From assembly GCA_964187785.1 (NCBI GenBank), contig OZ076409.1:34164001-34228000 (forward strand): a DNA stretch of 64,000 nucleotides, given 5' to 3'. This document shows, one piece after another, positions 8,822 through 64,000 of the stretch (the first letter of the stretch is position 1; each line of letters begins with the position of its first letter). The notes below the pieces were generated by a model, which made no database searches, had not been told where the DNA came from, and saw nothing but the letters and a program-made list of their open reading frames with translations. Source of the DNA: Amphiscolops sp. MND2022. Lineage: Eukaryota. The translations under genes and the position numbers were made by a program.

Positions 8822-8829
8822 GTAATATT

Positions 8830-20695: not shown

Positions 20696-20905
20696 AAGAG
20701 ATTATTGCAAGAGGTAAGAGTTTAAATTGAGTTCTCAGGCTAGCAAACAAAGTTTTATTCCAATGGGTATTAACGAACTGATTGTGACTATCTCAAGGAA
20801 AATTGTGTTTTCGGGACTACAAGTCCCGGTTATTTATATTCAACACTGCATGACTTCCAAGATATATAGTGTCATCAATCTAACTTTACAACAAGAGATT
20901 TGTTT

Positions 20906-21704
20906 TGTAGGCCGTTTAATTGGATCATGTTAATAACATTACATGTGAAACAACTCGTATTGGGTTACATGTATAGCATGTGAAGAGAAAATAGTAAATT
21001 GACACAAGGGCCATGATACATGGCACTTCATAATTTGCACTATTTATGGAAACCAGCTTCTCGTTTGGGAAAGCTTCAGAGGAAAAGGGGAAAAGGACTG
21101 AAAGTTTACCTCAGTTTCAAGGGTGAACTACAACCAAAATTTATGCGCATCCGTAATAGCAATTTACTACAGGCCTTATGGGCCGCACAAGTTTACTAAT
21201 TGCATTTCTGCATAGTATATTGCATTTCAAAGTGGACTGGTAGTCCCGCTGCCATAGCACCGACAAGATGAATAATATAATTGCTGTACTAAACGGCGTT
21301 GTTCAACAAACATACTGCACTGTGATTGCTTGATATTCTCATGGACTGCTGGTCCAAGGCGACAAGCAAAGGAACATTTGAACACGTTTCCTTTGCCTGT
21401 ACGCTTTGGTGTCCAATTATTAACACAACTAATAACATATTGCACTTTTACATGTGTAAAGCAACGAAATACCAATCTAACATAAATAAATGGACTGAGT
21501 AGAAATAATTTTACATATGGTCCGGGTATTAAAACTAAACAACATCATAATTTGACATAAAAGTAGCGGATTCTAAGCAATAACTTCAAAGTTTGTTGAG
21601 AAATTAGTTTTAATTCAGGGGGAAAGTGCTGGGAAGGTCCCCATGACAGCTGTAGCTTATTGTGTAGAAATTTCCATCGCAGGCGGCAGCCCGCGACAGT
21701 CACA
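20906..21704 (-). repeat. 5' LTR of element B (inner boundary uncertain, may extend to 20783)
   Basis: Begins TGTGAC-TGTCGCGGGCTGCCGCCTGCGATGG on the minus strand and contains the repeat shared with 8582-8821. TATAAATA lies near 20831-20838 and an AGTCACA ends at 20783. Confidence 0.75.
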
Positions 21705-26900: not shown

Positions 26901-26954
26901 GCACCGCTGTTATTTCCGTATTGATCAATATATTGTTAATTCGGAATCGTTTCT

Positions 26955-28676: not shown

Positions 28677-31148
28677 CTTCGCCACGACTCCAATACAATC
28701 AACTAATATCCGTCCGTCAATACATCAGGTCGGATCCTCCAACAAAAACTTTTCATCAATATACACAACAATTGATGGGCTATCCCTCTGTTGTCTGGCA
28801 GCAACAGATGGAAAAAGCTACCATCATCACCTACAATAACACCCATTTATTCCAGAAACCAATTCCTGTTTGGGACCCTGATTATACTACTACCTTCACT
28901 ACCCGATTCAGGCCTATTCCCCTGGTTGACAATTACAACCCTACCTACATAGATCCAGACTACGGCAGAGACCCCTATTGGGACACAGAAATCTACAACC
29001 AGGAACAACTACAATTCCAATATGTCTTAGACGACATCGAGCACTATAATAGAACGGTCCACGAGAACCCTCCAATCACCCACAATAAAAAGACCAGAGC
29101 ACTAGTTGAAAACTGGCAAATGAATGATGGCACCAACCATCCAGTGTTCCCAAACCCATTAGGGACCGAGACCCATGAAGACGTTGCTCAACCAATACCA
29201 CAATCACTATTAGACGAGAAGCAGTTCCAGAATGTCTTAATCACCAGGGACGGTGAACCAGACTGTATACCACTGTCAACCAACATCAATCTCAAATGCA
29301 AAAAACGCATGTTGTACTTCCCCATGGACTTTGGGGAATTGACCATAGACGGACTTATTGACACTGGAGCGCTGTCCAGTGCAATTCCTGAAATGGACCT
29401 CCGGAAAATTCGACTTCTATCTCCACAATCTGTCATCCGGGAAGGTCCGCCTCCAAATTTCCAAATAATGGTTGCTAATGGGCAATTGGAAACTCCTAAG
29501 AGTACCATAGAGCTCAAATTTGAAGTTGGTGACATTGAGTTTCATGAGAGTTTTATAGTCATGGAACACCTGACAGGTCAAACCCGAATCACAGGCGACT
29601 GCCAAACATAAATGGCACCGTCTAGTCTTCGATCCCAACACGATGAAACTGCCAGATTTCCTTGAAGAATTAAATCAAGGGGCAGAAAAAGCATTCGGGG
29701 ATCACGCGCAGAAAATGATTGACAGTTTGCTCTACGCAAAACTGCCACCAAAACTGAAGCGGTCTGTAAACATGGCCAGACTCGAAAACGGCTCTTATGA
29801 CGAAATAGTTGCTCATTTAGAGAGAGAGTTAGAACTAAATGCCCTTGAGGAATCACACGACCTACCAATGGCCACAATGACCTCCTCGACAACAAAACCC
29901 AAGACTCCTCTAACTACTGGGCAAATGTCTGATATCACTTGCAACTATTGCAAGGAGAAGGGCCATTTGGTCAAAGACTGTGAAAAATTGAAGAAGAAAA
30001 AGGAAAAAGATGCCCAACAAGGCAAACAAACTCAGAAAAAGACGTATCCGGAGTGTGGCACTTGTGGTAAAAAGAACCACCCGGAAGAAAGATGTTGGCA
30101 AGGTGCTGGTGCGCATCTCAAACCCAAACGCACCAGACCAGATGACGCTAATGACGGTAAACCCAATTCAAAGGCGCAGAAACCACAAAACAAATCAACA
30201 TCTTCCAACTCACAGGCCTCATCTTCCAATGATGAGTCAAAAAACTAACTTCGCCACGACTCCAATACAATCAACTAATATCCGTCCGTCAATACATCAG
30301 GTCGGATCCTCCAACAAAAACTTTTCATCAATATACACAACAATTGATGGGCTATCCCTCTGTTGTCTGGCAGCAACAGATGGAAAAAGCTACCATCATC
30401 ACCTACAATAACACCCATTTATTCCAGAAACCAATTCCTGTTTGGGACCCTGATTATACTACTACCTTCACTACCCGATTCAGGCCTATTCCCCTGGTTG
30501 ACAATTACAACCCTACCTACATAGATCCAGACTACGGCAGAGACCCCTATTGGGACACAGAAATCTACAACCAGGAACAACTACAATTCCAATATGTCTT
30601 AGACGACATCGAGCACTATAATAGAACGGTCCACGAGAACCCTCCAATCACCCACAATAAAAAGACCAGAGCACTAGTTGAAAACTGGCAAATGAATGAT
30701 GGCACCAACCATCCAGTGTTCCCAAACCCATTAGGGACCGAGACCCATGAAGACGTTGCTCAACCAATACCACAATCACTATTAGACGAGAAGCAGTTCC
30801 AGAATGTCTTAATCACCAGGGACGGTGAACCAGACTGTATACCACTGTCAACCAACATCAATCTCAAATGCAAAAAACGCATGTTGTACTTCCCCATGGA
30901 CTTTGGGGAATTGACCATAGACGGACTTATTGACACTGGAGCGCTGTCCAGTGCAATTCCTGAAATGGACCTCCGGAAAATTCGACTTCTATCTCCACAA
31001 TCTGTCATCCGGGAAGGTCCGCCTCCAAATTTCCAAATAATGGTTGCTAATGGGCAATTGGAAACTCCTAAGAGTACCATAGAGCTCAAATTTGAAGTTG
31101 GTGACATTGAGTTTCATGAGATTTTTATAGTCATGGAACACCTGACAG
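28005..31148 (+). repeat. 1572-bp tandem duplication (gag 3' half to protease)
   Basis: 28005-29576 is repeated at 29577-31148, with GTC microhomology at the junction and at least 7 substitutions. Confidence 0.95.
28667..28673 (+). promoter_or_regulatory. -1 ribosomal frameshift heptamer A AAA AAC (second copy at 30239-30245)
   Basis: Directly precedes the gag TAA. The -1 frame (KKLTSPRLQYNQLISVRQY...) is open into pol. Confidence 0.88.
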
Positions 31149-34100
31149 GTCCAATTATCGGCCTAATGTTCCTTCAACGAAATCATACAGTCCTGGACAT
31201 GAGACAAGGAATACTGAACTTCCCGTTCTTCTCAATGCAGCTCAAAACAGCTGACCATAAATACTCAAATGTCTTAGAACCAATTCTCAATCCCATTGAG
31301 ATAACCATTCCGCCAAATGATAGAGTCCTAATTAGGACCAATTCCCTACTGTACCCTGAGAATGCTGTCACTGGAATTTTACAACCGAGCGACCTTCTAC
31401 ATGAAGAAGGCGACATCACATTCTGCCCAGCCTTGGTCACTCTGAATGACGGCAATATATCGATACCAGTGAGCAACTTCACAGACCACCCTTATAAACT
31501 CAAAAAGGGACTACATATTGCCAATTTCTCTGTCATGACGCCAGAACAAATGAAGTATGTCAAACCGGTAGACCCGGCATCAACCTGGCACCTTTTGCAG
31601 AATGACCAGGAGCAAGCAGCCCATTATGTCAGCAGTCTCATCAAAACCAATAGAAATCCACAAAACTCCGAAAATTATTGGTTCCCAACTCCAGAAAACC
31701 CTGGAAATCCTGAGGAACACACACCCATACAAAAACAAATCCTAAGCGAGTTACAGGCCTTACAGGACCTGGAGACACTCGACCCCACCACAGACGCAGA
31801 ATCGCGTGCAAAATTCTTAGAAAACTTTGACTGGAAAGATTCCACCCTTACTCCTGAAGAGAAGGAGAAAATTGAGGAATTGTTAGTGGAATTCCATGAC
31901 ATCTTTGCACGACACCGATTTGATATAGGCATGAACGAGGAATTCAAAGTGAAACTGACACCTAAGGACGATTCCCCAGCCTATAGTCAAAGCCTTCCAG
32001 CTCCTATCAATCTGAAGGAGGACATCCTAGTCGAATTAGTCATGTTGCACAAATATGGCATAATAACCACACTGCCGTTCTCAAAGTATGCAAGCCCAAT
32101 ATTCGCCCAAAAGAAACCAAATGGGAAGCTACGACTTTTGGTTGACTTGAGAAAAATCAATAACCTCATCTCGGATGATTATAAAAACAATAATCACCCT
32201 GTTAGCACCCTGGTTGATGCTGCCCAACACTTGGCAGGCAAAAAACTGTTCTGTAAATTAGACTGTTCGCAGGCATATCACTGCCTACCAATGGCCGACC
32301 AACGCTCAATCGAAATGTTGGCTTTCAATTTTGCCAGTCGTACATTAGCGTACAGACGCTTGGCACAAGGCCTTAGTCGGTCACTATCCGCATTCTCGAG
32401 TTTCATGAGGGAATACCTCGACAAAGTCATTAAAGCGGATCAGTGCGCCCAGTATGTGGACGATATCGGCATCGCAGCCAATGATGTTGACCACCTCATA
32501 ATGAACCTGAGAGCAACATTCAAATGCATTCAGGAAGCAGGCCTTAAGTTGACAATGCACAAATGTCACTTTGGTGCAAAAGAATTGATTTTCTCGGACG
32601 GACTATTACCCCACAAGGCGTCAAACCCCAGAAACAGAACGTGCAAAACTTTCTGGAAAAGACCAAATTCCCAAAGTCGAAAAAGGCTTTGCAGCGCTAC
32701 TTGGGATTCTTGAACTACTACAGGAATTATGTCCCAAGACTCTCCGAACGCCTTGCTCCATTCTACAAGATGCTCAAAAGTGACGAAAAGGTCCTAGTAT
32801 CGAAAGAATTAGTCCAACAATTCGAAGAAATCAAAAAAGCACTCGACAAATGTTGCGATTTAGCCCTACAACAGCCTATCCCGAACAAACAAATCGCACT
32901 AATGACTGATGCAAGTTTTGGTGCAGCTGGATATGCGGTCTTAAAAGAAGACGATCCAAACCAGAAATTCACATCTCTCCGAAAACCCTACGCACCGGTG
33001 GCCTATGGATCAAAAACCTTCACCCCAGCCCAGATCAAAATGTCAGTATATGCCAAGGAATTTCTGGCAATTTACTTTGCATTCAAAGAATTTGGACATA
33101 TATTCTGGGGTGCGCCCAAACCGGTCATTATCCTTACCGACAACAAAGCCACTACGAGATTTTTCCAAACGAAAATAATACCCCCAGCCCTGTGGAATGC
33201 ATGCGATTATGTGATTCAATTCAATTTTGTCATAGCACATATCCCGGGAGCACAGAACACAGCAGCTGACTATTTGTCCCGATTGGAGGCAGATCCGAAG
33301 GATAAATTAGTCATGAAAATCCGTGAAGACGTGCAAACTTTACCCATTGAGATAAATGTTCAATCTGCGGGGGTATCACAGGAAGAACAAATATTCTATA
33401 CGAATGATGATGACGAGACAGAGGAACAGTATTGGGCAAGAAAAGAAGCAATCAGGAAAAATCCAATGACTGATGAGCCCACTGTTACCATAGAAACTCT
33501 GTCAACCAATCTGGTCAAACAACAACCAGACATCCAAGTCCGATTAAAGAAAACAAACCAGATAATCATCGAGCAGTCCAAAGATGCAGTATTGCAACAA
33601 TTGAAGGCAAAGCTCCTTCATGAAGACTATTCAGAAAACATACTGCAACAGGATGCCCGATATAGACACTATGCAAATAATCTGGAACGAATTGTACTCA
33701 AGGACGAAATCCTGACGAGGCAATATTTTGATGAAACAGGGAATGTTAAATACCATCAAATTTTGCTCCCGCAACACCTACTTCGGGAATTGCTCCACTC
33801 CCTTCACGGGACAGCGCATAAACATCCCGGGATTTCAAAAATGTTGCAGGAAATCAGACAAAGGTATTACTACCCTAGCATGGCTAAACACGTCAAAAAG
33901 TGGGTAGAAGGGTGTGAACAATGTGCCAGAGACAAGAGAGTCCCTAACGCAACGATCACACCTGAGCTGCTCAACTTGCCCGAATGGGACCTTGGACCTG
34001 AAGACGCCATGCAGATTGACCTATTGCCGAATCTTCCCCCAAGTGGAGGGTATGAAAATGTCCTAACGGCAATTGATGTTTTCTCCAGATATTTATTCGC

Positions 34101-35448
34101 TTATCCCCTTACAGACGCATCAGCGATCAATGTGGCAAAAGCGCTCATTGACATAATGACCAAGCATGCATATCTGCCAACGACTCTTATTACTGATAAG
34201 GGTACTGCATTCACTTCTACGATTATTGCGGAGGTTACGCAAATTTTGGGCATTACACTCAAATGTGCAACGACAAAGCACCCGCAAACAATCGGGAAAT
34301 TAGAGCGGACCCATGCCTCATTAAAGACAAATCTCAAAATGGCATGTGGGGAATACCGCCGACAATGGCATAAATATTTGCCATTAGCAGTACTTAATCA
34401 TAATACGAGTTATCATGCCAGTATTGGTTGTGAGCCAACGAGAGTATTCCATGGCAGAATTCCCTATAACATTCTGGATCACAAGCTTGGAAATAATCCA
34501 AACGAAAAGATCAACCCTACAACCGAATTTGCAGAAGAAATCCAAAACCGGACAAAAATCCTAATTGACAAAACGAAGCAGAACATTATGCAGTCGTACA
34601 TCAAGTACAAAGAATATTACGACGGCAAAGCAAAAGCTGCTCCATTGAAGGAGAATGACTACTGTTTCGTCTTACAGCCGAAAGCGAATCATCAAGGATC
34701 AAAAATTCCATTCCGCGATTACCGTTGGGTTGGACCATTTGTAGTCCAAAAGGTTTTGCCAAATGAAAACTACATAGTACGAAGGATCAATACGAACAAA
34801 ACTCAAATTTTGCATCGCATTCGCCTTAAAAGGTTTATTCCCAATCAACCGCTTGAGGACAATTTCCGAGAACAACGTCTGCAGCCAGACGAAGAAATTG
34901 TCATTCCGCAAGACGACCTATACGTCATAGCGTGGGAAACAGATTTTGGAGAGCAGCTAGTTACACGAGACAGCGAGACTATTCCGACTAGCGTGCCGAA
35001 TGGCGAACAGCCGAACACGGCGGAAACGAATGCAAATGACGGAGACGAGACCGAAGCGGATTACATAATCACGCGAGAAGAATTAAACAACGACAACGCG
35101 GCACACAGCCGGAATAAACGCTTAGATGATGACGTCACTGAAAGAAATAAAGCTACTGCAGTGACAGAAAATACCAAATCTGATTGGCCGAATCCGGCCG
35201 TTTCCCCAAAAAACCAAGAAAATTCTTTGCCGAGTACGGCAGGTGGACCGGAAAATGATGAAATTTTTTCAGAAAGAAATTCAATGAATGAAAACGATGC
35301 ACAAAACTCTCCCAAAAGGGGGGATGATATTATCGTGCCCGAAATATCTGAAAATGATGCTAGAAATGAAAGTCTGAGCCCTAGAGGAGGGAAATATAAC
35401 CTCAGGCCTAACCCTAACCCAAACTACTCAGAAGACTTTAGATACTAA
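30239..35448 (+). CDS. pol: Pol of element C (PR, dUTPase-like spacer, RT, RNase H, integrase), one frameshift near 32583
   Basis: LIDTGA; YVDD; TDASFGAAG; H-H-C-C; IDLL...IDVFSRY...TDKGTAF...GKLERTH; WVGPF. The 1-nt loss in an A run may be a mutation or a sequencing error. Confidence 0.95.
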
Positions 35449-35673: not shown

Positions 35674-38600
35674 TTAGTCTTTAGAGGACCCTTGAACGGC
35701 TTTCTTGGATGCAGACGAAATTGTAGAACTGCTACTACCTGCTCGTTTCCTCTGCTTCTTGGAAGGCACCTTTACAGCTGAATCATCAGGGATGGACGAG
35801 GCGGTATCCTTTTCTATCCGGACAGAACGAGTAGAAGGAACAGCAGTAACGGCCTTATAGGAAGTGAGAAGACTCTTGTAGATCTTAGACCTACCAAACT
35901 CATCCACAAGGGTCCAAGGATCATAGTCAGCAGGGAAAGCAGAACGCTCGAAAGAGGAACTGAGAACTGAGAACTTCTCTAAATTGTCATCCGAGCAGCA
36001 ATGAGAAATGGAATTGGGCACACAGGAAAGGTAACTCTGGCAAGGCACCACTAGATCGGCAAAACGGCCCTGACACCCCGTTGTGTCAACACTCCCGAAC
36101 AGTACTGGGGGATATTGGGGGCTAACACTAGTCAGACACAAGCAGCAGAGTTTGAACAGATAGAACAGGTGCTCATGAGTTTGGAAAAACTCAAGCCCCA
36201 TTAAAAAGTCTATAAGATCGACGGAATTCTCCATTAGATCGAAATCTGGAGGATAGTTGACCCGGAGGTAGTCCAACAGAGCCAGATATTCGTCTCGACA
36301 ACTGTTCTCGTTGGCACTAGTGACCCATGATCGAAGCTGGAAAGTAGAATATAGCACATCGAAGTGCCGGAGCCCGACCTCAGAAGGCCTTTTGAAAAGC
36401 ACGAAGGGATCAAAAGCAGCCAACCCCTTTATCACTTCAGAGCTCAGACCAGCTTGACTAAGGACTTGCTTGACTAGATACTGAATGAATTGCAACGCCT
36501 CTTTGACAAAGCTGCTGGTCGTCTCTGCAACCGTCTTCTCGATAGCAGCCTTCTCCGATTTCTTGTTCAGGTGTGTGACTTCTGCACTCTGTTTACTAGC
36601 TGTAGCTATCCGGTTTGTGAGACGGTGCCGGATAAGGAAGTCTTCCTCACTCATGAATTTGCCCTCGCTCACCTTAAACCCGAGAAGGAGGAACCACGAG
36701 TTCTCGAGGGGAATAGTTTCTGGCAAATAACATCGGGCGCACAGTTTTGAAACAAAGCGGCAAACCTCCCCACAGAGGAAGAACGAAGCATCACGGCGAC
36801 CCCGCAGATTGATGGCGAAACTGGTAACGTCTGAAATACAACAGTCGTGATTATGAGAGGAATAGGATATACAAACGAGACAATGTTGATAGTGATTCAA
36901 CAACTCAAGGAATTAAATTATCAGAACGATGTCTTAGTGCACTGACGTGAAATGAAACCGTATACTCACAATCGCCAATTATACGTTGGAAGAATTCCAA
37001 TTTAGCAACGAAGAAGAAGTCACAGATGATGGACCACTCGAAGCTTTGGACCTGATTGTGGACTCCTTGCATTCCTTGGTGAGGGGTGTGCGTAGTCAAG
37101 TACTGTCTGATTGCCTTCCAATTCTTCACAAGTTCTCGGCAAAGACTGGGGAGGCTTGGCAAATCTAATTTGCAGGTGTCGATGGCCTTAAATGAACCAA
37201 ATTGTCTCTCAAATGCACCTACCTTCAAACCTCTAACTACATGAGTGAACTTAATATACTTACTCTTCCCAGATCAGGAGATTCCAGAACCCAGTCCTCA
37301 CCAGTAGCAGCTCCCAATGAAACGATCAGGCACTTTAGGACAGAGAAGAAGTCGATCCGTCCAAATACGCTGTAGGTGGGCTTGTGCATCATCTTCTGAA
37401 GCTGCAGCTGCTCAAAACGAAAGCAACTCTGCACTGCTCGGGGAAAGAACTCATTGTGATCTATGGTTTGGATCAGCTCTACAGGACATCCTGAACAGGC
37501 GACGATATCGGCTTTGGTTGAAACCACAGATAGTAGTCTGGATATCGAACCCAAGTCTCCAGTCAGATCAGCGGAGGGAAGCCCACTTCGGCACACAAAG
37601 ACGCGACAAAGAGAATCGCCTTTCCAGAACTTGATGGACATGAGCCTATTCACGCCCACATTCTCAAATTCGATAGCGAAGCATTGGGTGGTAGCAATTT
37701 GCTCTGCTAATTCACTCATGGCACAATTGAAAATGTGTTGGAAGACGGCCTAAAGAAGAAAAAGACAATTATGAAATGTGTAGGGAATCTATACCCTCCC
37801 TGAGTAAATGTTAGCCTGAAAGGGAACTTACCGAGATCCGTTCTTCCCCCCAATCAAAGTCGCAATATCTAGTTTGATAGTTCGTCAGAGATCCTATCTG
37901 AGCCCACAGTCTGCGGAGTACTCCAAGATCACCGTGGGTTTGCACGAAGTCTCCAACGAGGTGTATTTGTGTCTTGACCCTCGATGCAGGAGTGACGAGT
38001 GTGGTTGACGTCCCTTTCACGAAGTCATCATAGAATGGGAAGCGTTCTCCGATGTCTATTAGTTCGACGTGTATAAATTTGGGGAGTTCTTTCGCCAGCT
38101 CAATCTTAGTGAGGATCTTGCCGTTCCGCCCTCTGACCCGATGCTGCACTTTCCCAGTCACTGGATCAACGCTTTTGAGGTGCTCATAGCGCAACCTTTG
38201 ATCACGCCTGAGGTGTTTTTCGGTCCTGTGGTGACGCAGAATCTCCAGTGTGCCCTTAGTTTTTACAGAAATATTCTTCTTACATATATGGCACCACACC
38301 ATATAAGGATTATGAAGGGGATCAGCTGGCCCGGAGATGAACGATCGGGTCCAGCCAATTTTGGAGAAGAATTCCTCCTTCATTGGAATGCCCCGTGTGT
38401 GGCCGCGCCGTTTCTTCTTGGGCAATTTGCTAGAGCTCGAAGCTAGAGGCTGTGCTGGGGCCGTCTGGGTGCGTAATTCAGAGAGCGTGGCATCGAGACT
38501 GGATTGATCGGTGGATTCAAAACCTGCTTGGGTAGGGTCAGCTCGAGAAGGTGGAACGCGGCTGAAAGGTTCCTTGAAAGCCTGTGAGATGAGTGCCATC

Positions 38601-39836
38601 TCGCCAGAACTGTCTGTATCATTGAAAGACTCTAACCCTCTACTCTCTTGGCCAGCACTGGATCCTTCAGAGGTGTCAGTCCCTGATCCAGAACAGTATT
38701 CAGCCCGCGAACTATCTTCCGAATCACTTTGCAGCCCTGGGCCGGGAGTTTGAGCCCTTGGCCGGATCTTGAAGTGGTCAGTTCGGGCACTGGAAGTGAC
38801 GGGAGCCCCTCTAACCGCTCCGATTACCATCTGCTCCATGGTGGAGTAGGACATTTTCAAGGTCTCGTCTGTAAGGACCCTCAGAAGATGATAGATTTGT
38901 GGCTCCGTGAACGCCACAGTTCTATGACCAAGCGGGAAGGTGATAGTACTGGCATCATCATCGAAATACTGTTTCAAAATGGCCCTACTACGGCCAGAAA
39001 GCTCCCTGATCTTGGGGTCCTGAGCTGCTGAAGTGGAAGGACGCATGGGATCAGGCATCGCAGCGAAAGTATCAGTTGACGACCCTTCTACTGCTGTGTC
39101 TGCTACATTACCTATTGGAAGGTAGGCATACAATTGAGGAGCACTAGCCTGACTGGATGTGTCGCCGGCTTCTTCAGTTCCAGTCTCATCGCCCAACCAC
39201 CTGACTTTTGGTGTTCCTGTTGGCAGCTTGGGGACATCACATAGGGAAGAGCTTTCGTCCGTTTCAATCTGGAGAAATGAAGCTGCGGACATTTCGGCAG
39301 GAGTCACGTTAGTGGGCAACAATTCCGGTAATATAGTCCTCGAGGAAGGAGCAATCGTTAGCCCAGTCTCTAACTGAGTCAAATTGAGCTCGTCGGTTTC
39401 ACCGGCTACGCCTGAAGTTGGGGTACTAGTACGAAAGACCGGTGCAGTAACCCGTGCTTCGACCCCCGGAAGAAGGACCCTCAGGTATACCTCTCTCAGT
39501 CTCTTGTTCTCTTCTCTCAGAGTTCTCCGCAGTATGTCCCTCTGATTGCTGTTGGGCCTGTTCAAGGAGCTGGAGCTTTTCGTCGGCATAAGATGTTACA
39601 TCAACGTTGCTGTCTGTGCTGCTGGGAGACCTTGGTGGCCTGATTGGAGGAAAAGGAGGAGGAGACAATTGTGGTCTTCGGACGGTAGAGGAAGTACCCA
39701 CAGAAACAATCGTTTGAGTATGTTGGTCGGGAATGTCCGCTGCAGAGTTAGTTTGTGTTTGCAGTTCGTCTCCTGGCTGGTTTGCTAAGCAAAAGGAGAT
39801 GAAATTTGGCGGTGAGCTTCCTTGAAAAAAATCCAT
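35674..39836 (-). CDS. Antisense spliced gene of element C: BED-type zinc finger plus inactive hAT-transposase-like protein (about 1205 aa from ATG 39589)
   Basis: Exons 39589-37832, 37749-37264, 37186-36970 and 36830-35674 join in frame through GTAAGT/GTGAGT...AG introns. The conserved start (MDFFQG..FISFCL, 39836) is in another frame. The hAT call rests on motif pattern. Confidence 0.85.
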
Positions 39837-40871: not shown

Positions 40872-41616
40872 ATGCAAAGATATAACTTAACCAAGAAGCT
40901 CTTCGACTTTGAAGAAGAGGATTCAGAAAAATCAGCAAATTCGATAATCTACATATCCAGCGACAGTGAGAATGAGGCTTCAAGCGATTGGGACTCAGAC
41001 TGGTCTACTGATACGGAGGCTATAATAGACAGGATCGAACGGGAAGTTAAAGCGGCACCAATTCCTATTGCCGGACGGGGGATGACAATAGAAAGCTCAG
41101 ATGACGAAATGGCGGCAGGACCCAGCTACATTCAGTCTGTTCCGCCTTCTACCCCGAAATTGGGATTTGAGTACTTCAACAGAGAAATGTGTCTAGCGCC
41201 GTCCAAAAGGCAGAAGAAGACGAGGGTTGAGCTCTGCACTACTGTTTTGCCTGTTTTGGAATCTCCATTATCTCCTCCCGACCACGAGAGGGGACCAAGT
41301 ATTGATACCCCTCCTGTACAGTCGACCTCAGGGACCTTCTACGCCTCGTACCATGTGCAGAATATCAAGCCTTACCAGGACGTCAGCGAAAGTCTACACA
41401 CGGGCTGTATGGTATGTGGTAAATCGAGAGAGCAGATAAAAGAGGAAAAGATCAACTGGTATATGGAGAGATCGACGCCCAAGAGTGAACCAGCCTATAT
41501 CACCGCATTGCGACGAGAAGCATACTCTAATGGCTTAAATGCAGGTAGTCTACTTTTCCTATCACCCGCAGTGTCGCAGGCTGCCGCCTGTGATGGCACT
41601 AAGATCACGACAACAG
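40872..41616 (+). CDS. Accessory sense ORF3 of element C, unknown function; predicted 262 aa ending inside the LTR
   Basis: Open into the gap. The 5' LTR copy supplies ...TTAEGQEIATGTLPIY* (stop at 25671-25673). Has an acidic N-terminus and CMVC, and a homolog in element B. Confidence 0.85.
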
Positions 41617-41816
41617 NNNNNNNNNNNNNNNNNNNNNNNNNNNNNNNNNNNNNNNNNNNNNNNNNNNNNNNNNNNNNNNNNNNNNNNNNNNNNNNNNNNN
41701 NNNNNNNNNNNNNNNNNNNNNNNNNNNNNNNNNNNNNNNNNNNNNNNNNNNNNNNNNNNNNNNNNNNNNNNNNNNNNNNNNNNNNNNNNNNNNNNNNNNN
41801 NNNNNNNNNNNNNNNN
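41617..41816. other. Assembly gap (200 N)
   Basis: Run of N starting 45 nt into the 3' LTR. Confidence 1.
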
Positions 41817-50700: not shown

Positions 50701-52310
50701 GAGAATTTTGTTGTCTGCTAATAAATTGACCATTGAATCAAACTTCTTTTTGAAAAAAATTGCTCTTAATATTCGCCTCTGTGCACATTCAATTTTTTGT
50801 AAATTGGTTTTCGCTGCACTACCATAAACCAGCAGACCATAGCAGATAACTGATTTAGCAAAAGAGTTATAAAACATTAAAAGACATTTCCGTGGATAAA
50901 AATGACGGACTCTATATATAAGACCACAGAACTTATTTAGTTTTTTACTACATAATCTATGTGCTCTCGCTAAAGGAGTTTTTTATCCAAGTGAACTCCC
51001 AGATACCTACAGGATGCTTTATAATTCAATTCGGAGACCCCGGTTTTAATTGTGTTTTGTTTTCTTTAAGACCGATTTTGTTCCAGGAAAACCTCTGACC
51101 TACATAGATGACTATGAAGACAAAGTTTATCACGTCGGAGTTCTACCAGATATTCCAGCAGCCAAAGAATCAATAAAAATGGACGCAGAGTTGAAGCGAT
51201 TCATAGATAACAGTGACAAGCCCCTAATCTACATATCCCTCGGTACATGGTTCGCTTTTTCCGAGGAACGCACCGAGCTCATCATGAAGAAAATAGCCGA
51301 ACAGTCTCTTTATAAGGTTATTTGGTCAAACAAGCGATGGACTCCGCAAATGAATGAAAAACTGGATGAACGACAAGTTTTCATGCGGGCGAAACTTCCA
51401 CAAAAGGATATCTTGGAGTCTGGAAAAATGTGAGTTGAATGATTTGTTCCAATGTACTCTGCAATTGCGCCAAGTCTTCCAATTGGAGCTAATGTCGCCA
51501 GAAAGTCTCGCTATCTCATAAAACGCCGGAAGGCGTATTGTTATTTATAACTCAAAAATCTTACTTCAGCCGCGGTGATGGCAAGCTTTTTAAAAATTTT
51601 TCTAGTTTCCTGAATGTTTTCAATTTTTCGGTTCGAATTTTTTTTAGAAGCATTGTATGAATCGTGACTAAGATTTCGAGATGTTTAAAATTGAAACGCA
51701 GGTTACAGTCTGAAATTTCAACAAATTGTCAGTTTGAGGTAACAATTTTTGTCCTTCTCCGCCAATGCCAAGACTTTTTTCATCCATAAACATCTATTTA
51801 ATTTTTATCTTTGTTTAATGTTCAAAGCATATCTGTTTCAGAACTGTCTTTGTGTCCCACTGTGGGGCTAGCTCTTTAATCGAAAGTCTGCGGGCTGGTG
51901 TTCCTATAATTGGAGTGCCCCAAGGACGAGATCAATACTACTTGGCAAGAAACGTCAATACCGCAAAAATTGGAATCGAATTAAGTGGCGAGCCAGATCC
52001 GGATGATCTTATCGAAGCTATAGAAAAAATTCGAACTAACTGGAACGTTTATCACGAGAACACTAAAAAGGCACTGTATGAATTGACTAACAACTCAAAA
52101 GAAAATTTGGAGAGAGTCATTGACACGTTTGTGGAGAAAGGCCATGTCGTGACCTTCAACGATGGCCCTATCTTTCCGACATCTCACGCGTTTGCTTTAG
52201 TTTTGTTGCTGCTAAGCATGGCTGCTCTTCTCATATGGTCGATAATTTATGCTTTATTCCGTTGCTGTTGCAGTAAAAGTTCACCTCAGAGGAAAGTGAA
52301 GTCTAATTGA
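44706..52310 (+). CDS. UDP-glycosyltransferase (UGT family), multi-exon host gene
   Basis: Inferred exons 44706-44820 (signal peptide), 45464-45718 (CDSHF), 46076-46257 (RPDIVVSD), 48393-48615, 51071-51429 (IYISLGT, VIW, LPQKDIL) and 51842-52310 (FVSHCGASSLIESLRAGVPIIGVPQGRDQ signature, TM helix, KVKSN end). The phase between 48615 and 51071 is not reconciled. Confidence 0.9.
46485..46558 (-). repeat. tRNA-derived SINE head or tRNA pseudogene
   Basis: A box TGGCCCAGTTGG and B box GGTTCGATC at tRNA spacing, but no acceptor stem. Confidence 0.65.
47556..48316. repeat. Family 2 element interrupted by a family 1 element
   Basis: Terminal hairpin CCCGC-GGACCA-GCGGG and inverted ATTTTCCGCCC/GGGCGGAAAAT motifs. 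The sequence flanking the insert is contiguous at 57678-57753. Confidence 0.7.
47737..48260 (-). repeat. Family 1 Helentron/DINE-like element
   Basis: Subterminal inverted AGTCGGCGC/GCGCCGACT, terminal hairpin, inserted in an A run. Confidence 0.75.
50171..51010 (-). mobile_element. 5'-truncated non-LTR retrotransposon (CR1/L2-group-like) in a UGT intron
   Basis: RT C-terminal LNKFCGLIYRVR...FYNSFAKSVICYGLLVYGSA...QRRILRAI and a (TTGAAACA)n tail at 50172-50208. Confidence 0.85.
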
Positions 52311-53496: not shown

Positions 53497-56400
53497 AACA
53501 AGACGCCCGCTGAGCAGCGAGATATTGTCCGCCCGAAAATGTTCTACAACTACATAAATTTGAGGCTGAAGACTAGCCATTCAACTATAAAAACGCAGAG
53601 GAGTTCGAAGAAAAGAAAACTTTGATTCATTTTAGCCAATTTTACAGGAAACCCCTAAATTATTATTTCTGCGATAGCTGGCCACTTTTCGTTTTTTTTT
53701 CGGCACTATGCGAAAAGTGAAAATTTTCAGTGAATTTTTTGAAATAATTTTTGAACCATTTTCCGCAATTTTTAGTTTTTGAGGTTTTCTGTAAAGAGAT
53801 AAGTTTCCTGAGTCTTGAGGGTAACTTCTTCGTCACTTTTGATCATATGGAACTGACGAGGTCTCTTATTGATTGTAGGAATTACCTCCGTCTTTCCGAA
53901 ACTTTCATCCGATCAAAGAGTACGATTGCTTTCATAGCTGCTTTCAGCTTGAGAAAAGTAATTTGCGAGCTGGAACTTGTTTCGCCATCACAGAACTTTT
54001 CCGGAAAAATTAAAAAAATGGATTTTTTAAATTCCTGTAGGCAAAAAGTGTTTTTCTAGTTTCAGGCAAGTTTCTTGAGGTAATTTTTGGCACCGATAAA
54101 ATGGTAAAAGCTTGGAACTAGGTCCTTTGCAAATTTAGGAAACTGAGCGATCCCGGATTGTTTTATTATTGCACATAGTTTCACCAGAAGTGTCGAAAAT
54201 TGGAAATAGTTTTGAAAACTGTGAGGTCAATTTGAGGAACTTTTCTATAAAAATCTACAGATATCTCTTCAAAATCAATTCAATCTTTCCTACTGGACAC
54301 CGAGTTTAGCTGTTGTTGAATGTGTACACCATTCTAACTCACGAAGTAGCTTGAAACAGCTTCCTTTGGAAGGTGTACTCCATATCTAGTGGTTTTGCTT
54401 GGTGATTTTTGAATATTAAGTCTCGGATAAATGAGGTCGAAATTTACGTTTCCAAGTAGTTTTTGAAAGTTGGGCAAATACACTTGTCTGATATCTTTTC
54501 GAAACACTACCGGCATCTACACATTTCAATCGTGAACCTATGGTCTTTCTGGTTGATCTTAGTTTTCAGAAAGGAACCAACATTTGGGACATGTTGCCGA
54601 AAACAAAGAAAGTTCGGAAATTTTGACACCTCTGGTGTTAACTCGATGAATTTCATCCCTCTTTTTCACCCAATTGCGTTTTGAATACCTCATTGTTTCA
54701 ACGCTCAGGTCATTGGAAGTTCTATTCTTCAAAAACTTGCATGGTTTGAACAAAAATTGGAAATAGTTTGTCAAACAACGTGCTTTTTTGTTGTTTTATA
54801 AGTTTTTGGGTGTTTGCTAAGGGCAACAATATTTGCAGTTATCTCTTCATAATTGCCTACTAGAGATACCCGGATAAGTCAGTGTTGAGTTTTTTAATTC
54901 CATTTATACATGAAGTAGCTCAAAAACAGTACAAAAAACTGCCTAAAAATGTTTAAAAAACCTGAAAATTCTCAGTTTTTTTCAGATATTTGGGTCACTT
55001 TGAGGAATATTGCGACCATAAATTAGCCAATACGTGATTCGGAACTAGTTTTATCATCTGGGGCTTTTCGAAACTTTTATTTTACAGAAATTTTCCAACC
55101 TCAAATAAACTAAAATCTCAATTTGGAGCCATTTTTTTCCGACCGAAGTCTGCAAATACTTTCCTTAAAAGCCAACTGTATTATGAGTTCAGTCCATGTT
55201 GAACGTTTGCCATTATTCTGATTCCAAAGCGATTGAAAAAGTACAAAAATTGCACAAAAACGAAGATTTTGAGTTTTTTAGAAGTGTTATCGAAGCAAAA
55301 CGCTGCAACGTTCTCTCCCACAAACGTAATTCAAAGCTCGTCCTTTCGTTGTCGAGTTGGTCGTAATGGAAGTTGGAACGAAACCTTTCGGAAAAATGTA
55401 CAGAAATCGCATCAGAAACGACAAAAATTTCAAATTTTTGACAGTTCATGGTCAATTTGAGGCCTTTTTCTTGGTCAATTTGAACTCATCACGTGACGAA
55501 AGCTCACCGATACACCAAGTTTGCTCATGTTTTAAGCGTTTTAGCAATCTAAACCACGAACTCTATAGACATTTGAAAAAGTGAACAAAAAAGAGAAAAT
55601 TACAAAATTTTGGAAATTCTGTCTTTTCGATTTCAATTCCGGACAGTTTTCGCTTGAAAAATTGCCTTTATCTCTTTACTAAGCATACTGAACAGCACAT
55701 TTGTCCCAAACTTTCCTTGTTGACCCTTTTCAACGCTCCAGGTGACGAACCTATCGAAAAGTTGGAAAAATTACATAAAATCTTTGAAAATTGGAAAAGT
55801 TTGGGGTTTTGTCATTTTTCGGTTAATTTTAGATATTTTCGTTCAGAACATTGCAATTATCTCTTCATGAAAGACTACTGAACAACCAATTGTTTATTGT
55901 TTGACCCTTTAAAACAATCCAATCCACGAAGACTGTCGGAACTTCAACAAAAAAATGAATAAATGTTTAAAAATTGGAAAGTTTCGAGAATTTTGTCATT
56001 TTCGGTGTCAATTTGAGACATTTTCATTCACAAAATTAAAATTATCTGTTCATAAAAGACTCCTGGACAAACAATTTGTTCCTTGTTGACCTTTTAAAAC
56101 ATTCCAATCCACGAAGTCTGTCGAAAGTTTAACAAATGCAAATTTGAAAATTGAAAAATTTGTGTTTTTCGTCTTTTTCTGTGTTAATTCGAGACATTTT
56201 AATTTAAAAACTGGGATAGGTTCTTTAGAAAAGCCTGCTGGACAACAAAATCTTTCATTGTTGACAAATTTTATTGTTCCAATCCACAAAGTCCGTCGAA
56301 AATTTGGAAAAATATTCATAAAAACTGTGAAAATTAAAAGTTTCAAGGTTTTTTGTCATTTTCGGTGGCAATTTGAGACATTTTCACTGAGATAACTGGA

Positions 56401-57753
56401 TGATATGTTCGGAAAAGCCTATTGGACAACACATTCCTTTCTTGTTGAACCTCTCCAGTGTTCCAATCCAAAAAGTCAGTCAAAAATTCGGAAAAAAAGG
56501 ACAAAGCTTTGAGAATTGGAAAAATTTTAGAGAATTTTGTCATTTTCGGTGTCAATTTGAGACATTTTCACTGAGATAACCTTATGAATTTTTCGGAGAA
56601 GCCCATTGGACAACACACTCATTCTTTGTTGAACCTTTCCAGCATTGCAATCTAAAAAGTCAGTCAAATATTTGGAAAAAAAGCATAAAACTTTGAAAAT
56701 TGAAAAAATTTTAGAGAATTTTGTCGTTTTCATATAGAAAACAGCAATTATCATCTCGAAAAAGCCTAGTCGACAATGAATTAGTGCCATGTTGAATCTT
56801 TTCAACATTTTAATCCACGACATTTATCGAGAAATTGACAAAAATTGCATTAAAACGTAAAAAACTGGAAATTATTGTAGTTTTTACTATTTTTGGGGTC
56901 ATTCTGGGGTCCTTGGGGTCAACTAAAAAAGTCCAGAAGACTCCACAAATACAAATCGCAAGCTTTGAAAATTGTAAAAATTATAGAGAATTTTGTCATT
57001 TTCGGTGTCAGTTTGAGACATTTTCACTGAGATAACTGGATGATATGTTCGGAACAGCCTATTGGACAACACACTCTTTCCTTGTTGAACCTCTCCAGTG
57101 TTCCAATCCAAAAAGTCAGTCAAAAATTCGGAAAAAAAGGACAAAGCTTTGAGAATTGGAAAAATTTTAGAGAATTTTGTCATTTTCGGTGTCAATTTGA
57201 GACATTTTCACTGAGATAACCTTATGAATTTTTCGGAGAAGCCCATTGGACAACACACTCATTCTTTGTTGAACCTTTCCAGCATTGCAATCTAAAAAGT
57301 CAGTCAAATATTTGGAAAAAAAGCATAAAACTTTGAAAATTGAAAAAATTTTAGAGATTTTTGTCGTTTTCATATAGAAAACAGCAATTATCATCTCGAA
57401 AAAGCCTAGTCGACAATGAATTAGTGCCATGTTGAATCTTTTCAACATTTTAATCCACGACATTTATCGAGAAATTGACAAAAATTGCATTAAAACGTTA
57501 AAAAACTGGAAATTATTGTAGTTTTTACTGTTTTTGGGGTCATTCTGGGTCATTCTGGGGTCCTTGGGGTCAGCTAAAAAAGTCCAGAAATCTCCAAAAA
57601 TACAAATCGCACGAAGCTAAAATTATGTGAGTTGAATTCTGTGTGTAACACCCTTAAAGTTAAATATAAATTTAGTGCTTGGCAAATTTTGTAAAAAAAA
57701 CCCGTTTGATTTAAATATTTTCCTTTCCCATATGAAATATGGGCGGAAAATAA
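53497..57753. repeat. Long family 2 element enclosing a tandem array
   Basis: Same two ends as 47556-48316. Confidence 0.55.
55600..57600. repeat. Degenerate tandem repeat (about 180-nt unit) with a recent 640-bp duplication
   Basis: TTTTGTCATTTTCGGTGTCAATTTGAGACATTTTCA recurs near 55990, 56350, 56535, 56990 and 57175. 56343-56960 recurs 640 nt later. Confidence 0.85.
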
Positions 57754-60570: not shown

Positions 60571-60584
60571 CCCCTTCCCCCCTT
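60571..60584 (-). promoter_or_regulatory. Polypurine tract of element D (AAGGGGGGAAGGGG)
   Basis: Pure purine run followed by TGT, about 130 nt after the pol stop. Confidence 0.9.
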
Positions 60585-60716: not shown

Positions 60717-63700
60717 CTAAGTGATGCCAGGAAATTGTTCAATACTGTCAATGGAGACATAGACGCGATCATGCAGAAATACAGTGATATCAGTTCCTGC
60801 AAAAACGTCCATGACACTATGATAAAAGTTGTCCAAACTGCGAAGTGGGCGTTCAGGGTCAACTATGGGGAAATGAATATCAGGGGTTTCGTTGGACAAT
60901 AATGAAGCTTTCAAGTGCTCCAAGCATAAGACAAAGTCATCGGTGATTTGTGGTGAACGCTGGGAGGGGCGTGTTATCATTAGGTGAATAACTTGATTAT
61001 CCATAAAAGATAATGAGGATGGGATAGTGAGGACTTCACCAACTGTTGGGCGAAGTTGGAATATTTTGTCGCTGCCACACTCGCGAAGAATGTAGCGCAA
61101 GGCAGCAGAATTGGTATTAAGGTCTGCAGGGCAGCAAATTGCCACGTGGCCCTGCACCTGCAAGAAATCAGTTTGGTCGTAAATAATGTAGTCGACCAAA
61201 TTTGGTCGTAGGGCACCAGGAAAAACAATCTGACGTCCGGGGCCTTTTTCATCAGCTAGGTCTACATGGTTCTGTCCACGAATAGCAGATAGATCCTGCC
61301 ATACGGACGGCGACAGGGACTGATTATCCACATTTGCTGTTGACCATGAATCCAGGGTACCAAGTGCAGTGTGGATCGTTACAGGCTCGGTGAAGGAATG
61401 GGTCCAATCATCCAAAAGGCGGATACGAGGGAAGCTGGCGAACAAAGTGATAATCAGCTCTAGCCACCATCGGAACCGTAGTTTTCCACGATAAAGATCA
61501 ACGATGTGGAAACACAAAATGAGTTCCTCTGTGACAACAGTCCGCAAACTTTCTAGACAGCTCCGCAAGCTGTCAGGCTGTACCAAAGAGTGAGCATGTG
61601 GGGCAGTTACAAGCAACCACCAATATTGGGCTGGGCGATACACTTCACCAGGCTGACAGGTGATGCCGTATTTGTCAGATAGGAGGTCAGCGGTGATACA
61701 GCGGACCATTTGGATGGGTTCCCTCTCATAATTGAAAGGTCCAAATACAATGTTAGGAGTGACAGGAGGCACTGTGACGGCAAGCGTGAATTCCAATCCG
61801 CGGAGATCGCTTGTCCACTCTTTGAAGCGAGGACAAGGTTCCTCAGCAATCTTGGATTTAGATAATTCTTCCAGCACGACGTCTACAGGGAAGATACGTT
61901 CTCGTTCTAGACCGGTGTATGTCTTCTCTGCGCGGATGACCACGCGACTGACAAGAAGCTTACCATTGTGGATAAAAGGTTGAGGCTTTGGATCCACCGG
62001 AGCTTTCACAGGTCCAAGTGGGATAGTGGGCGATTTGTTCAGAGCCATGACACAAGTGCAATCGCGGAACCCACAGGTTCCACATCGATATCGAGGTACT
62101 CGATTCCGGCGTAAGCCATAGTGTGGGTTAACCTGCGTTGCGCCTTGGTCAACATCGGATGTAAGGTGCGCGGTGGGCGCATCAGAGTCAGAATCGGATG
62201 TAATTGATGGCTGTGTGTCATTTTCACGAGCTGTTTGCCGTGAAGAAATAGTGTGTCCTCGTGGCCTCCGAGGAGGTCGTCCTCGAGGACGTCCTCTGCG
62301 ACTGGGAGTCCTTTGAGCGCGCACGCTCACGTTCTGCGACCGGGAATTTGTTGCTCGTGTCGAACAACGAGATAGAGCAGCTCGCGATCTGCCCCTGCCA
62401 CGCGTGCTAGGGACATTGTTCCGAGCAGTTGGCTCCTTGGTGTTGGATAACTCGGTGTCACGGGTTTCAGTGTTTTGGAGGTTGGAGGTACCATTCGGCA
62501 ATTGGGGAGTACTAATAGGCACATCCGTCAATGTAGGATTTGTCAACAGAGGAGCAGATGTACCCGCTAGTGATACTTCGGCTTCTCCAGTTGCAACGGG
62601 AATATCTTGCGATTGAGGTACTTCCGGAAAAACTTCAGATTCGGATAAAAATGGAAGCTCATCGGCAGGTTCAAATGACCGAGGTTGTTCATCGGGAGGC
62701 ATTGAGGCTTCGAATAGCGCCGGAGGTTCTGCCTGGGAATGATCTCGGGCATCTGACAGCAAGTCGTCAGAGCGCGAACGCTCTGGGTCGGAACTGGAAT
62801 AATCAAATTGCTGATAGTGGAGACGACTGCCTCCAGCTCGCATTCTAGTACGCAACCTGGTGTCCATCCAGTGGCGTCTCCTTGATGGTAGCGATACATC
62901 TGATGCTTCAGAGAGCGGTTCTTCCTCGCGACATGAGGGTTGTGAGCAGTCATCTCGGATCTCCTCAGCAGAGTGCTCAGGCTCAGGATCCATGACAACG
63001 ACCACTTCGCCACTCCCCGAGGGAAGCGCAACAAACTCCGTAGGGCCACCATGATGAGGTTTCAGCCGCTCAAAGTGCACTTTTTGTCCTGAGTCCAGGA
63101 TATAGACGCGGCCATCTTGTAGTACATGGACAACCTTGTGCGGACCACGCCAAGCTCTCATCAACTTCGGTGATCCTTTTTGAGGCACATAGCGGCAGAA
63201 TACCCAAACGGGGTCTCCCACATTGTATGCGTTTGCACGAATAGCTCGATCATATTTTAGTTTTTGACGTTGTTGCGCCTGATGCGTGTTTCTACGCACC
63301 AAGTCATGAATTTCTTGCTGACGAGCAAGAATATGCTCCACATAAGCTCCGTGCGATTCAAATGATCTGGCTGCGAACTCCGGATACAGATAGGTGAGAG
63401 GAATAGCCTTTTCGGTCCCTCGGGTCAGCATGTAGGGTGAAAACCCAGTCGTGGCGTGGCGCGTTGAGTTATACGCTCCCATGACTTCATCCAAATGCTG
63501 GTCCCAATCTCTCATGCGACGCGAGCAGAATACCCGCAACAAAGTCAGCAAAGTCCGATTTTGTCGTTCAACCAGGCCTTGGGTGCGCGGGTGACCCGCC
63601 GTAGAGGTAACTTTTGTGACCTGAGATGCCCTCATGAACTCATTGGATACCTCTGCAGTCAAGTTGGGGGCATTGTCTGATTGCATCCGCGTAGGCGTGC

Positions 63701-64000
63701 CGTGTCTGGCAAACCATTTCTGCAAAAGCAACCTAGACGTGGTCACTGCATCGTAATCCTCATGGCTGCAGGGTACAGCCTCCGCAAACTTGGAGAAATG
63801 GTCAATTATTACCAATATGCCGGTGTTATTGTTATCGGAGGGGCATATTTTCAGATGGTCATACTGGACCAACTCATTGAAATACCCACTTTGGATATTT
63901 TTCAAGTGAAACCGAACGTCACCCGGCCTGTCACGTACTTGCTGGCACGTGAGGCACTGACTCACGTACTGACCAACACTGCGGCGAATACCTGGCCAGG
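60717..64000 (-). CDS. pol: 3' part of Ty3/Gypsy pol (element D): integrase with about 780-aa extension including tandem macrodomain-like folds
   Basis: WPGIRR...CLTC, YDHL, IDHFSKF, QSDNAPN, QGLVERQNRTL, WRGPH. The frame is open to the window edge. Confidence 0.93.
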   Translation of the reverse strand, partial: WPGIRRSVGQYVSQCLTCQQVRDRPGDVRFHLKNIQSGYFNELVQYDHLKICPSDNNNTGILVIIDHFSKFAEAVPCSHEDYDAVTTSRLLLQKWFARHGTPTRMQSDNAPNLTAEVSNEFMRASQVTKVTSTAGHPRTQGLVERQNRTLLTLLRVFCSRRMRDWDQHLDEVMGAYNSTRHATTGFSPYMLTRGTEKAIPLTYLYPEFAARSFESHGAYVEHILARQQEIHDLVRRNTHQAQQRQKLKYDRAIRANAYNVGDPVWVFCRYVPQKGSPKLMRAWRGPHKVVHVLQDGRVYILDSGQKVHFERLKPHHGGPTEFVALPSGSGEVVVVMDPEPEHSAEEIRDDCSQPSCREEEPLSEASDVSLPSRRRHWMDTRLRTRMRAGGSRLHYQQFDYSSSDPERSRSDDLLSDARDHSQAEPPALFEASMPPDEQPRSFEPADELPFLSESEVFPEVPQSQDIPVATGEAEVSLAGTSAPLLTNPTLTDVPISTPQLPNGTSNLQNTETRDTELSNTKEPTARNNVPSTRGRGRSRAALSRCSTRATNSRSQNVSVRAQRTPSRRGRPRGRPPRRPRGHTISSRQTARENDTQPSITSDSDSDAPTAHLTSDVDQGATQVNPHYGLRRNRVPRYRCGTCGFRDCTCVMALNKSPTIPLGPVKAPVDPKPQPFIHNGKLLVSRVVIRAEKTYTGLERERIFPVDVVLEELSKSKIAEEPCPRFKEWTSDLRGLEFTLAVTVPPVTPNIVFGPFNYEREPIQMVRCITADLLSDKYGITCQPGEVYRPAQYWWLLVTAPHAHSLVQPDSLRSCLESLRTVVTEELILCFHIVDLYRGKLRFRWWLELIITLFASFPRIRLLDDWTHSFTEPVTIHTALGTLDSWSTANVDNQSLSPSVWQDLSAIRGQNHVDLADEKGPGRQIVFPGALRPNLVDYIIYDQTDFLQVQGHVAICCPADLNTNSAALRYILRECGSDKIFQLRPTVGEVLTIPSSLSFMDNQVIHLMITRPSQRSPQITDDFVLCLEHLKASLLSNETPDIHFPIVDPERPLRSLDNFYHSVMDVFAGTDITVFLHDRVYVSIDSIEQFPGIT

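What the first reader, a model, noticed from the sequence alone, without database searches (positions are those of the whole stretch)
60768..61755. Integrase fused to tandem TARG1/DarG-like macrodomains
Seen: TDFLQVQGHVAICCPADL..VGEV..IHLMITR..LEHLK..DIHFP..DVFAGTDITVFL (~61190-60768) follows the TARG1/OARD1 pattern GDLF..LAHCISED..GEV..YYLITK..LEAMK..LSMP..EVF. A more degenerate copy (MVRCITADL..PGEV..WWLLVT..CLESLR) precedes it. The catalytic Lys is replaced (ITR, VTA). They sit where chromoviruses carry a chromodomain. Inference: ADP-ribose or chromatin readers for targeting, or a counter-defence module.
Basis: inference. Interest (0 to 1): 0.7.

Follow-up and report, generated by a model that had tools for sequence, protein, structure and literature searches.

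The report
Retrotransposon integrase with twin disarmed macrodomains
A jumping-gene family carries, behind its integrase, two tandem domains predicted to fold like the ADP-ribose-removing enzyme TARG1; both lack TARG1's catalytic lysine and phosphate-binding loop yet keep conserved replacements, so they likely serve as a repurposed binding or tethering module, not an enzyme.

Summary
Observation confirmed. An open 1093-residue frame (63998-60717, minus strand) is the end of a Ty3/Gypsy Pol: integrase, a long linker, then two domains. Each folds as a TARG1-class macrodomain: human TARG1 is the top structural hit for both (Foldseek E 6e-10 and 2e-4; VIA Z 15.3 and 9.3), and the two profiles match each other (E 6.5e-7). 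The tandem is kept in relatives down to about 30% identity, and in one unbroken 2974-residue Gag-Pol.

In domain 2 the catalytic Lys84 is Arg (22 of 23 non-redundant relatives). The GxG phosphate loop reads D-P-E-R, with Glu at Gly123, the substitution that abolishes ADP-ribose binding in TARG1. Domain 1 has also lost the adenine Asp and shows no GxG. The replaced pocket residues are more conserved than average (p about 0.003), so the site looks remodelled, not decayed. AT-hook-like motifs and a Cys4 motif precede the domains.

Best reading: a captured TARG1 turned non-catalytic tether or binding module; ligand untested. The scan noted single TARG1 domains in other retroelements before; the disarmed tandem had no matching note.

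The parts
63519..63998 (-). Integrase: end of H2C2 zinc finger and rve core with D,D(35)E; runs off the window edge
   Evidence: Pfam PF17921 residues 1-23, PF00665 residues 41-137; triad by inspection
63060..63152 (-). GPY/F-like integrase C-terminal module (label recalled, not from a call)
   Evidence: 65-81% identical over residues 201-325 in most full-length relatives; coordinates
62121..62980 (-). About 290-residue Ser/Pro/Glu-rich then Arg-rich linker, poorly conserved
   Evidence: 34-46% identity on gapped alignments against 71-94% for the integrase core
62271..62300 (-). AT-hook-like R-G-R-P motifs inside the linker (AT-hook likeness recalled; no Pfam hit)
   Evidence: Motif in 46 of 49 proteins (window protein included) with at least 260 residues upstream of the tail; 0.8 of 49 expected from shuffles
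62052..62120 (-). Y-x-L-R-x-x-R motif followed by a four-cysteine motif C-x2-C-x4-C-x-C, likely zinc-binding
   Evidence: 46 of 49 and 44 of 49 proteins; zinc binding inferred
61782..61950 (-). Conserved unassigned segment of about 55 residues; not a third macrodomain
   Evidence: Aligned across 27 non-redundant relatives; hhalign vs domains 1 and 2 E 0.16 and 0.32
61401..61751 (-). Macrodomain 1: shortened TARG1-class fold, no catalytic Lys, no adenine Asp, no GxG, keeps D-x-x-R
61200..61400 (-). Two-helix spacer with conserved Trp residues
   Evidence: Model helices 152-164 and 176-184; W162, W177, D179 invariant in 8 sequences
60759..61199 (-). Macrodomain 2: full TARG1-class fold; Lys84 to Arg (60971-60969), GxG loop to D-P-E-R-P (60860-60846), Asp20 kept
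60571..60584 (-). Polypurine tract, followed by TGT at 60570, the likely start of the 3' LTR; no room for an env-like ORF3 between the Pol stop (60717) and the tract
   Evidence: LTR end not determined, no second copy in the window

Best explanation
The Pol frame of this Ty3/Gypsy retrotransposon ends in two tandem domains predicted to have the TARG1 macrodomain fold, which lack TARG1's catalytic lysine and GxG phosphate loop and likely act as a non-catalytic tether that would dock the integrase on chromatin or a host protein. Steps: (1) shown: integrase and both domains are one open frame, also in a complete Gag-Pol relative; (2) shown by model and profile: both domains are TARG1-class; (3) shown by alignment: the catalytic and phosphate-binding residues are replaced family-wide; (4) inferred: no ADP-ribose hydrolysis and probably no ADP-ribose binding; (5) inferred: one captured TARG1 first acquired the D-x-x-R loop and then duplicated, since both copies share it; (6) inferred: the remodelled pocket of domain 2 (Arg at 84, Asp/Glu/Arg in loop 3) binds a new partner, and with the AT-hook-like and Cys4 motifs on a flexible linker it works like an integrase targeting domain.
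For: Fold. Fusion: P0216, a single 2974-aa Gag-PR-RT-RH-IN-tail frame. Loss of TARG1 determinants in 23 non-redundant domain-2 sequences: Lys84 Arg 22 of 23, Gly121 Asp 22 of 22, Gly123 Glu 17 of 22, Gly43 Ala 21 of 23, Asp125 in none of the four commonest residues; the published TARG1 pattern TKx(30,35)Px[IL]GxGxD (PMC6397177) matches 0 of 205 proteins held; GxG in loop 3 in 0 of 33 domain-1 and 1 of 23 domain-2 rows, and that one is shifted. K84A inactivates TARG1 (PMC8501950); G123E and G43E abolish ADP-ribose binding (PMC5928194). Selection: 18 pocket-equivalent positions average 0.67 conservation vs 0.51 for the rest (p 0.006), the 9 changed sites 0.75 (p 0.003); tandem kept at about 30% identity (P0204, P0086, P0091). 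Shared D-x-x-R aligns between domains. AT-hook-like motif 46 of 49 vs 0.8 shuffled.
Against: No ligand, partner or insertion-site data at all. Adenine Asp20 (18 of 22) and Thr83 (18 of 23) are kept in domain 2 and Lys to Arg is conservative, so a nucleotide ligand is not excluded. Residue mapping rests on an HMM alignment at 19% identity; model coordinates could not be inspected. The nine 'changed sites' were picked after seeing the alignment, pocket positions include buried ones, and relatedness is not corrected, so the p values are optimistic. The tail lies about 465 residues from the GPY/F-like module and could be cut off by the element's protease. pTM 0.50 gives no fixed arrangement of the two domains. 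The domains are only moderately more conserved than the linker (40-49% vs 34-39% between subfamilies).
Confidence: 0.45

Rival explanations
1. Domain 2 still binds ADP-ribose or a related nucleotide through a rebuilt pocket, as a reader of ADP-ribosylated chromatin or as a non-canonical hydrolase that counters host ADP-ribosylation.
For: Asp20 and Thr83 kept, Arg at the Lys84 site nearly invariant, pocket more conserved than the rest. Earlier scan notes report TARG1 domains in several retroelement lineages (unchecked).
Against: Two acidic residues and a Pro replace the GxG loop; Gly123Glu alone abolishes binding in TARG1; loop-1 glycines absent in 23 of 23; Asp125 lost; TARG1 pattern 0 of 205.
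Confidence: 0.2
2. The tandem works like the SARS-unique domain: two macrodomains that no longer bind ADP-ribose but bind the element's RNA or a translation factor, aiding translation or packaging, perhaps after cleavage from integrase.
For: SUD is a precedent for tandem non-ADP-ribose macrodomains that bind nucleic acid (PMC2674928 abstract). TARG1 G123E still binds RNA. Conserved Arg residues in domain 2 and an Arg-rich linker.
Against: TARG1 binds RNA by positive surface patches, whereas these domains are near neutral (median pI 6.1 and 6.5, net charge -1 and -2).
Confidence: 0.2
3. The domains are catalytically dead decoys that bind and titrate a host restriction factor which normally recognises TARG1 or macrodomains.
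For: Fold and surface residues conserved without catalysis; duplication would raise avidity (inference).
Against: A decoy should keep resemblance to host TARG1, but identity is 18-19%.
Confidence: 0.1
4. The tail is a decaying relic of a once-active TARG1 domain with no present function.
For: Many of the homologues are truncated fragments; catalytic residues are lost.
Against: Frame, fold and invariant residues persist across subfamilies at 30-60% identity; fragments are expected from dead copies.
Confidence: 0.05

Closest known systems
Human TARG1/OARD1/C6orf130 (PDB 4J5S, 4J5R, 2LGR), ALC1/TARG1-class macrodomain
   Same: Top structural hit for both domains; Asp20, Thr83, Pro118 equivalents kept in domain 2
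   Different: Lys84 to Arg, GxG loop to D-P-E-R, Asp125 lost, loop-1 glycines lost; duplicated; fused to a retrotransposon Pol
DarG antitoxin macrodomain (PDB 5M3I, 5M3E, 7OMU)
   Same: Next-best fold match (Z 14.2 and 9.1)
   Different: DarG needs Lys80 (PMC8501950); no sequence-level hit; no toxin partner here
Macro-domain genes in teleost epsilon-like endogenous retroviruses (Basta et al. 2009, seen only as cited in PMC4977317)
   Same: A retroelement carrying a captured macrodomain
   Different: Described as additional ORFs in retroviruses; class and activity not seen by me; here an in-frame tandem at the end of Gypsy Pol
SARS-unique domain SUD-N/SUD-M (PMC2674928, abstract)
   Same: Tandem macrodomains in a polyprotein that have given up ADP-ribose binding (shown for SUD, inferred here)
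   Different: Different macrodomain class and origin; weaker fold match (Z 5.8-7.4); SUD binds G-quadruplexes via lysines
Chromovirus chromodomain and CR-motif putative targeting domains (PMC3059260, passages)
   Same: Accessory domain at the integrase C-terminus, beyond GPY/F
   Different: Unrelated fold; far longer linker; targeting not tested here

Membership tests
Ty3/Gypsy LTR retrotransposon | Pol order PR-RT-RH-IN | tested here: met
   In relative P0216; the window itself holds only the integrase end
Ty3/Gypsy LTR retrotransposon | Polypurine tract and paired LTRs with target-site duplication | tested here: inconclusive
   Tract and TGT at 60584-60568; 5' end lies outside the window and no genome is held
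Macrodomain fold, TARG1 class | Alpha/beta/alpha macro fold closest to TARG1/DarG/Poa1p | tested here: met
   domain 2; domain 1, shorter and weaker
TARG1-like hydrolases | Catalytic Lys84 | tested here: not met
   Arg in 22 of 23, Lys in 1; Ala or Ser in 30 of 32 for domain 1
TARG1-like hydrolases | Pattern TKx(30,35)Px[IL]GxGxD (PMC6397177) | tested here: not met
   0 of 205 proteins
TARG1-like hydrolases | Adenine-binding Asp20 | tested here: inconclusive
   Met in domain 2 (18 of 22); not in domain 1 (Pro 14 of 27 at the position matched by eye)
TARG1-like hydrolases | ADP-ribose binding and hydrolysis | not testable with these tools
   Needs biochemistry
Chromoviruses | Chromodomain at integrase C-terminus | tested here: not met
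   No Pfam chromodomain in the 1093-aa frame or P0216; both tail domains fold as macrodomains
AT-hook proteins | R-G-R-P core flanked by basic residues, binding AT-rich DNA | tested here: inconclusive
   Motif enriched but no Pfam hit; binding untested

The most novel reading that the evidence does not exclude
A retrotransposon lineage converted a captured ADP-ribose eraser into a new class of integrase targeting module: tandem pseudo-TARG1 domains whose rebuilt Arg/Asp/Glu pocket reads a non-ADP-ribose chromatin mark or host factor and directs insertion.
Probability: 0.25. Interest if true: 0.8.

Novelty: new variant of a known kind. Interest (0 to 1): 0.52.

Why it matters
Accessory domains at the integrase end can set where retroelements insert. 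A macrodomain-derived one would be a new targeting chemistry. It also gives a natural series from enzyme to pseudoenzyme in the TARG1 class: the family carries the Gly123Glu state that biochemists engineer to block ADP-ribose binding, and P0190 looks intermediate. It tempers the idea that every retroelement macrodomain is an ADP-ribose eraser.

Tried and rejected
Pfam and NCBIfam do not detect the tail (best Macro hit E 0.3 in P0190). PDB profile search with domain 1 found nothing. The first domain-1 vs domain-2 profile comparison was discarded because the alignments overlapped; redone on trimmed domains. A third macrodomain upstream was considered and rejected. ESM Atlas gave leads only: 0.89 to a Macro cluster for domain 2, 0.79 or less for the domain-1 region. 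No whole genome is held, so copy number, LTR pairing, insertion sites and dN/dS could not be computed. No RNA holder or other run was listed. Viral contigs gave 0 relatives of 41 pattern matches; metagenomes gave 1 of 13, a short fragment. Searches for longer relatives with deep profiles reached no intact-pocket retroelement TARG1, so the donor was not identified. Cluster look-up gave no names, so host range is unknown. The original TARG1 structure paper was not held. No complex was predicted. Literature searches for a description of this architecture: 0 papers; 1, fish ERV review; 42; none of the 30 listed titles on topic; uninformative; 3, off topic; 2; subscription papers, Basta et al. 2009 and repeat databases were not seen.

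Full report
Observation. The minus strand carries one open frame from the window edge (63998) to a stop at 60717, 1093 residues. It starts inside the integrase zinc finger and holds the rve core (E 4.9e-8) with D,D(35)E intact by inspection. After a GPY/F-like module (label recalled) come a linker of about 290 residues, a Y-x-L-R-x-x-R and four-cysteine motif, an unassigned conserved segment and a two-domain tail. A polypurine tract followed by TGT lies about 130 bases after the stop, so there is no env-like third ORF at this position.

Relatives. The 370-residue tail (P0002) found 44 longer proteins among 3333 candidates, most at 40-67% identity, all unnamed ENA records, and 277 cluster representatives at E up to 0.001, of which the best 150 were returned. 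Several carry RT, RNase H and integrase in frame. P0216 is one 2974-residue frame with protease, RT, RNase H, integrase and the tail. P0204, P0086 and P0091 keep both domains at about 30% identity. The cluster of a 90%-identical relative has 46 members, so the family is multi-copy. Host range is unknown, since no record carries a name.

Fold. Domain 2 profiles hit only TARG1/C6orf130 significantly in the PDB (E 1.8e-4; 1.7e-5). The alignment is ungapped over about 60 residues spanning Lys84 to the last strand. The AlphaFold2 model (71 sequences, pLDDT 79.6, pTM 0.50) matches TARG1 at E 6e-10 and Z 15.3, followed by DarG and Poa1p. Domain 1 folded alone (30 sequences) also ranks TARG1 first (E 2.2e-4; Z 9.3, 114 aligned residues spanning a 150-residue chain, so it is shorter). 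Z 9.3 is modest by the tool's own note, but the top rows are all macrodomain-fold chains and the two domains match each other as profiles (92%, E 6.5e-7; reversed control 0.15). The tandem is real.

Active site. TARG1 binds adenine with Asp20, pyrophosphate with a GxG loop, and catalyses with Lys84 and Asp125 (PMC6397177, passages). K84A is inactive (PMC8501950, passages). G43E, I44E and G123E lose ADP-ribose binding and catalysis, while G123E and G43E still bind RNA (PMC5928194, passages). I mapped these sites through. After keeping rows with at least 85% coverage and below 85% identity (23 domain-2 and 33 domain-1 rows from 231 proteins), domain 2 has Asp20 in 18 of 22, Arg at 84 in 22 of 23, Asp at 121 in 22 of 22, Glu at 123 in 17 of 22, Arg at 124 in 19 of 22, Ala at 43 in 21 of 23, and Pro, Ser or Gly at 125 in 20 of 21. 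The redundant set agrees (Arg 91 of 96, Asp 71 of 76, Glu 63 of 76). The published TARG1 pattern matches 0 of 205 proteins. Domain 1 has Ala or Ser at 84, no GxG in 33 rows, mostly Pro at the Asp20 position, and by eye lacks the loop-1 segment. Both domains share D-x-x-R in loop 3, which suggests remodelling came before duplication (inference, no tree). P0190 keeps one glycine there and looks intermediate.

Decay or remodelling. Pocket-equivalent positions in domain 2 are more conserved than the rest (0.67 vs 0.51, permutation p 0.006; nine changed sites 0.75, p 0.003). These values ignore relatedness and burial, and the nine sites were chosen after seeing the data. Between subfamilies the integrase core is 71-74% identical, domain 1 45-49%, domain 2 40-44%, the linker 34-39% on gapped alignments: the tail is constrained far less than the integrase. 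An R-G-R-P motif persists in the linker in 46 of 49 proteins against 0.8 expected, and the Cys4 motif in 44 of 49. The domains are near neutral in charge, which argues against simple electrostatic RNA binding.

Mechanism. Most likely a TARG1 gene was captured at the Pol end, lost catalysis and ADP-ribose binding, gained a new conserved loop, duplicated, and now serves as a binding module on a flexible arm of integrase, helped by AT-hook-like and zinc motifs. Capture, fold and residue loss are supported by calls. Loss of binding is inferred from TARG1 mutants. The tethering role is inferred from position and neighbouring motifs only (0.45). Rivals are a rebuilt nucleotide pocket (0.2), an SUD-like RNA or translation role (0.2), a decoy (0.1) and a relic (0.05).

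Comparison with what is known. It has the TARG1 fold but fails the TARG1 hydrolase membership tests. It is not a chromovirus, though the position resembles the putative targeting domains beyond GPY/F (PMC3059260, passages). Macro-domain ORFs in fish endogenous retroviruses are on record (Basta et al. 2009 as cited in PMC4977317, passages; original not seen). SUD is the functional analogy for tandem non-ADP-ribose macrodomains (PMC2674928, abstract). Six searches of the open library found no description of Gypsy integrase with tandem macrodomains; closed journals and repeat databases were not searched, and supplements were not examined. This scan has noted single TARG1-type domains in retroelement Pol at least five times, twice in this genome (unchecked notes).

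Verdict. A real and well-supported architecture; a new variant of retroelement-borne macrodomains whose novelty lies in duplication and conserved disarming. Interest 0.52.

Noticed in passing
window 26940-35448 (+) with 35674-39595 (-): A Gypsy element with a 1572-base tandem duplication of gag-protease (D2) is followed by opposite-strand ORFs of 594, 170 and 412 aa. One has a C-x2-C...H-x4-H zinc-finger-like motif. None has a Pfam hit.
   Followed up: partly
window 8581-21145: An older mirror copy of the same arrangement: Pol remnants at 15513-20160 (-), similar opposite-strand ORFs at 10813-14488 (+), bounded by 242-base direct repeats at 93% identity that may be LTRs.
   Followed up: partly
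window 25585-25629 and 41572-41616: Identical 45-base repeat; the second copy ends at an assembly gap (N run 41617-41816) and lies in a 329-aa open frame. Possibly the LTRs of the 16-kb element between them.
   Followed up: partly
window 60479 and 59613 (-): The same 14-base purine-rich motif occurs twice in the presumed LTR region; the second is followed by TGTAAC, so a second LTR start or nested element is possible.
   Followed up: partly
window 51050-52310 (+): Exons of a UDP-glycosyltransferase gene (Pfam UDPGT E 1.5e-6) with a C-terminal hydrophobic stretch.
   Followed up: partly
window 55822-57624: Array of about 184-base repeats, 60-96% alike (D1, D3, D7, D9).
   Followed up: no
window 1640-6155 (-): Another decayed Gypsy element (gag, protease, RT fragments) between 165-base direct repeats at 95% identity.
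   Followed up: no
P0190 (unnamed 1.2-kb contig): Most TARG1-like member of the family: keeps a glycine at the Gly123 position and has a weak Pfam Macro hit (E 0.3); a candidate intermediate.
   Followed up: partly
L001:778-954: A fragment of domain 2 on a 1056-base metagenome contig whose upstream part is unrelated AT-rich sequence, possibly a chimeric contig.
   Followed up: partly
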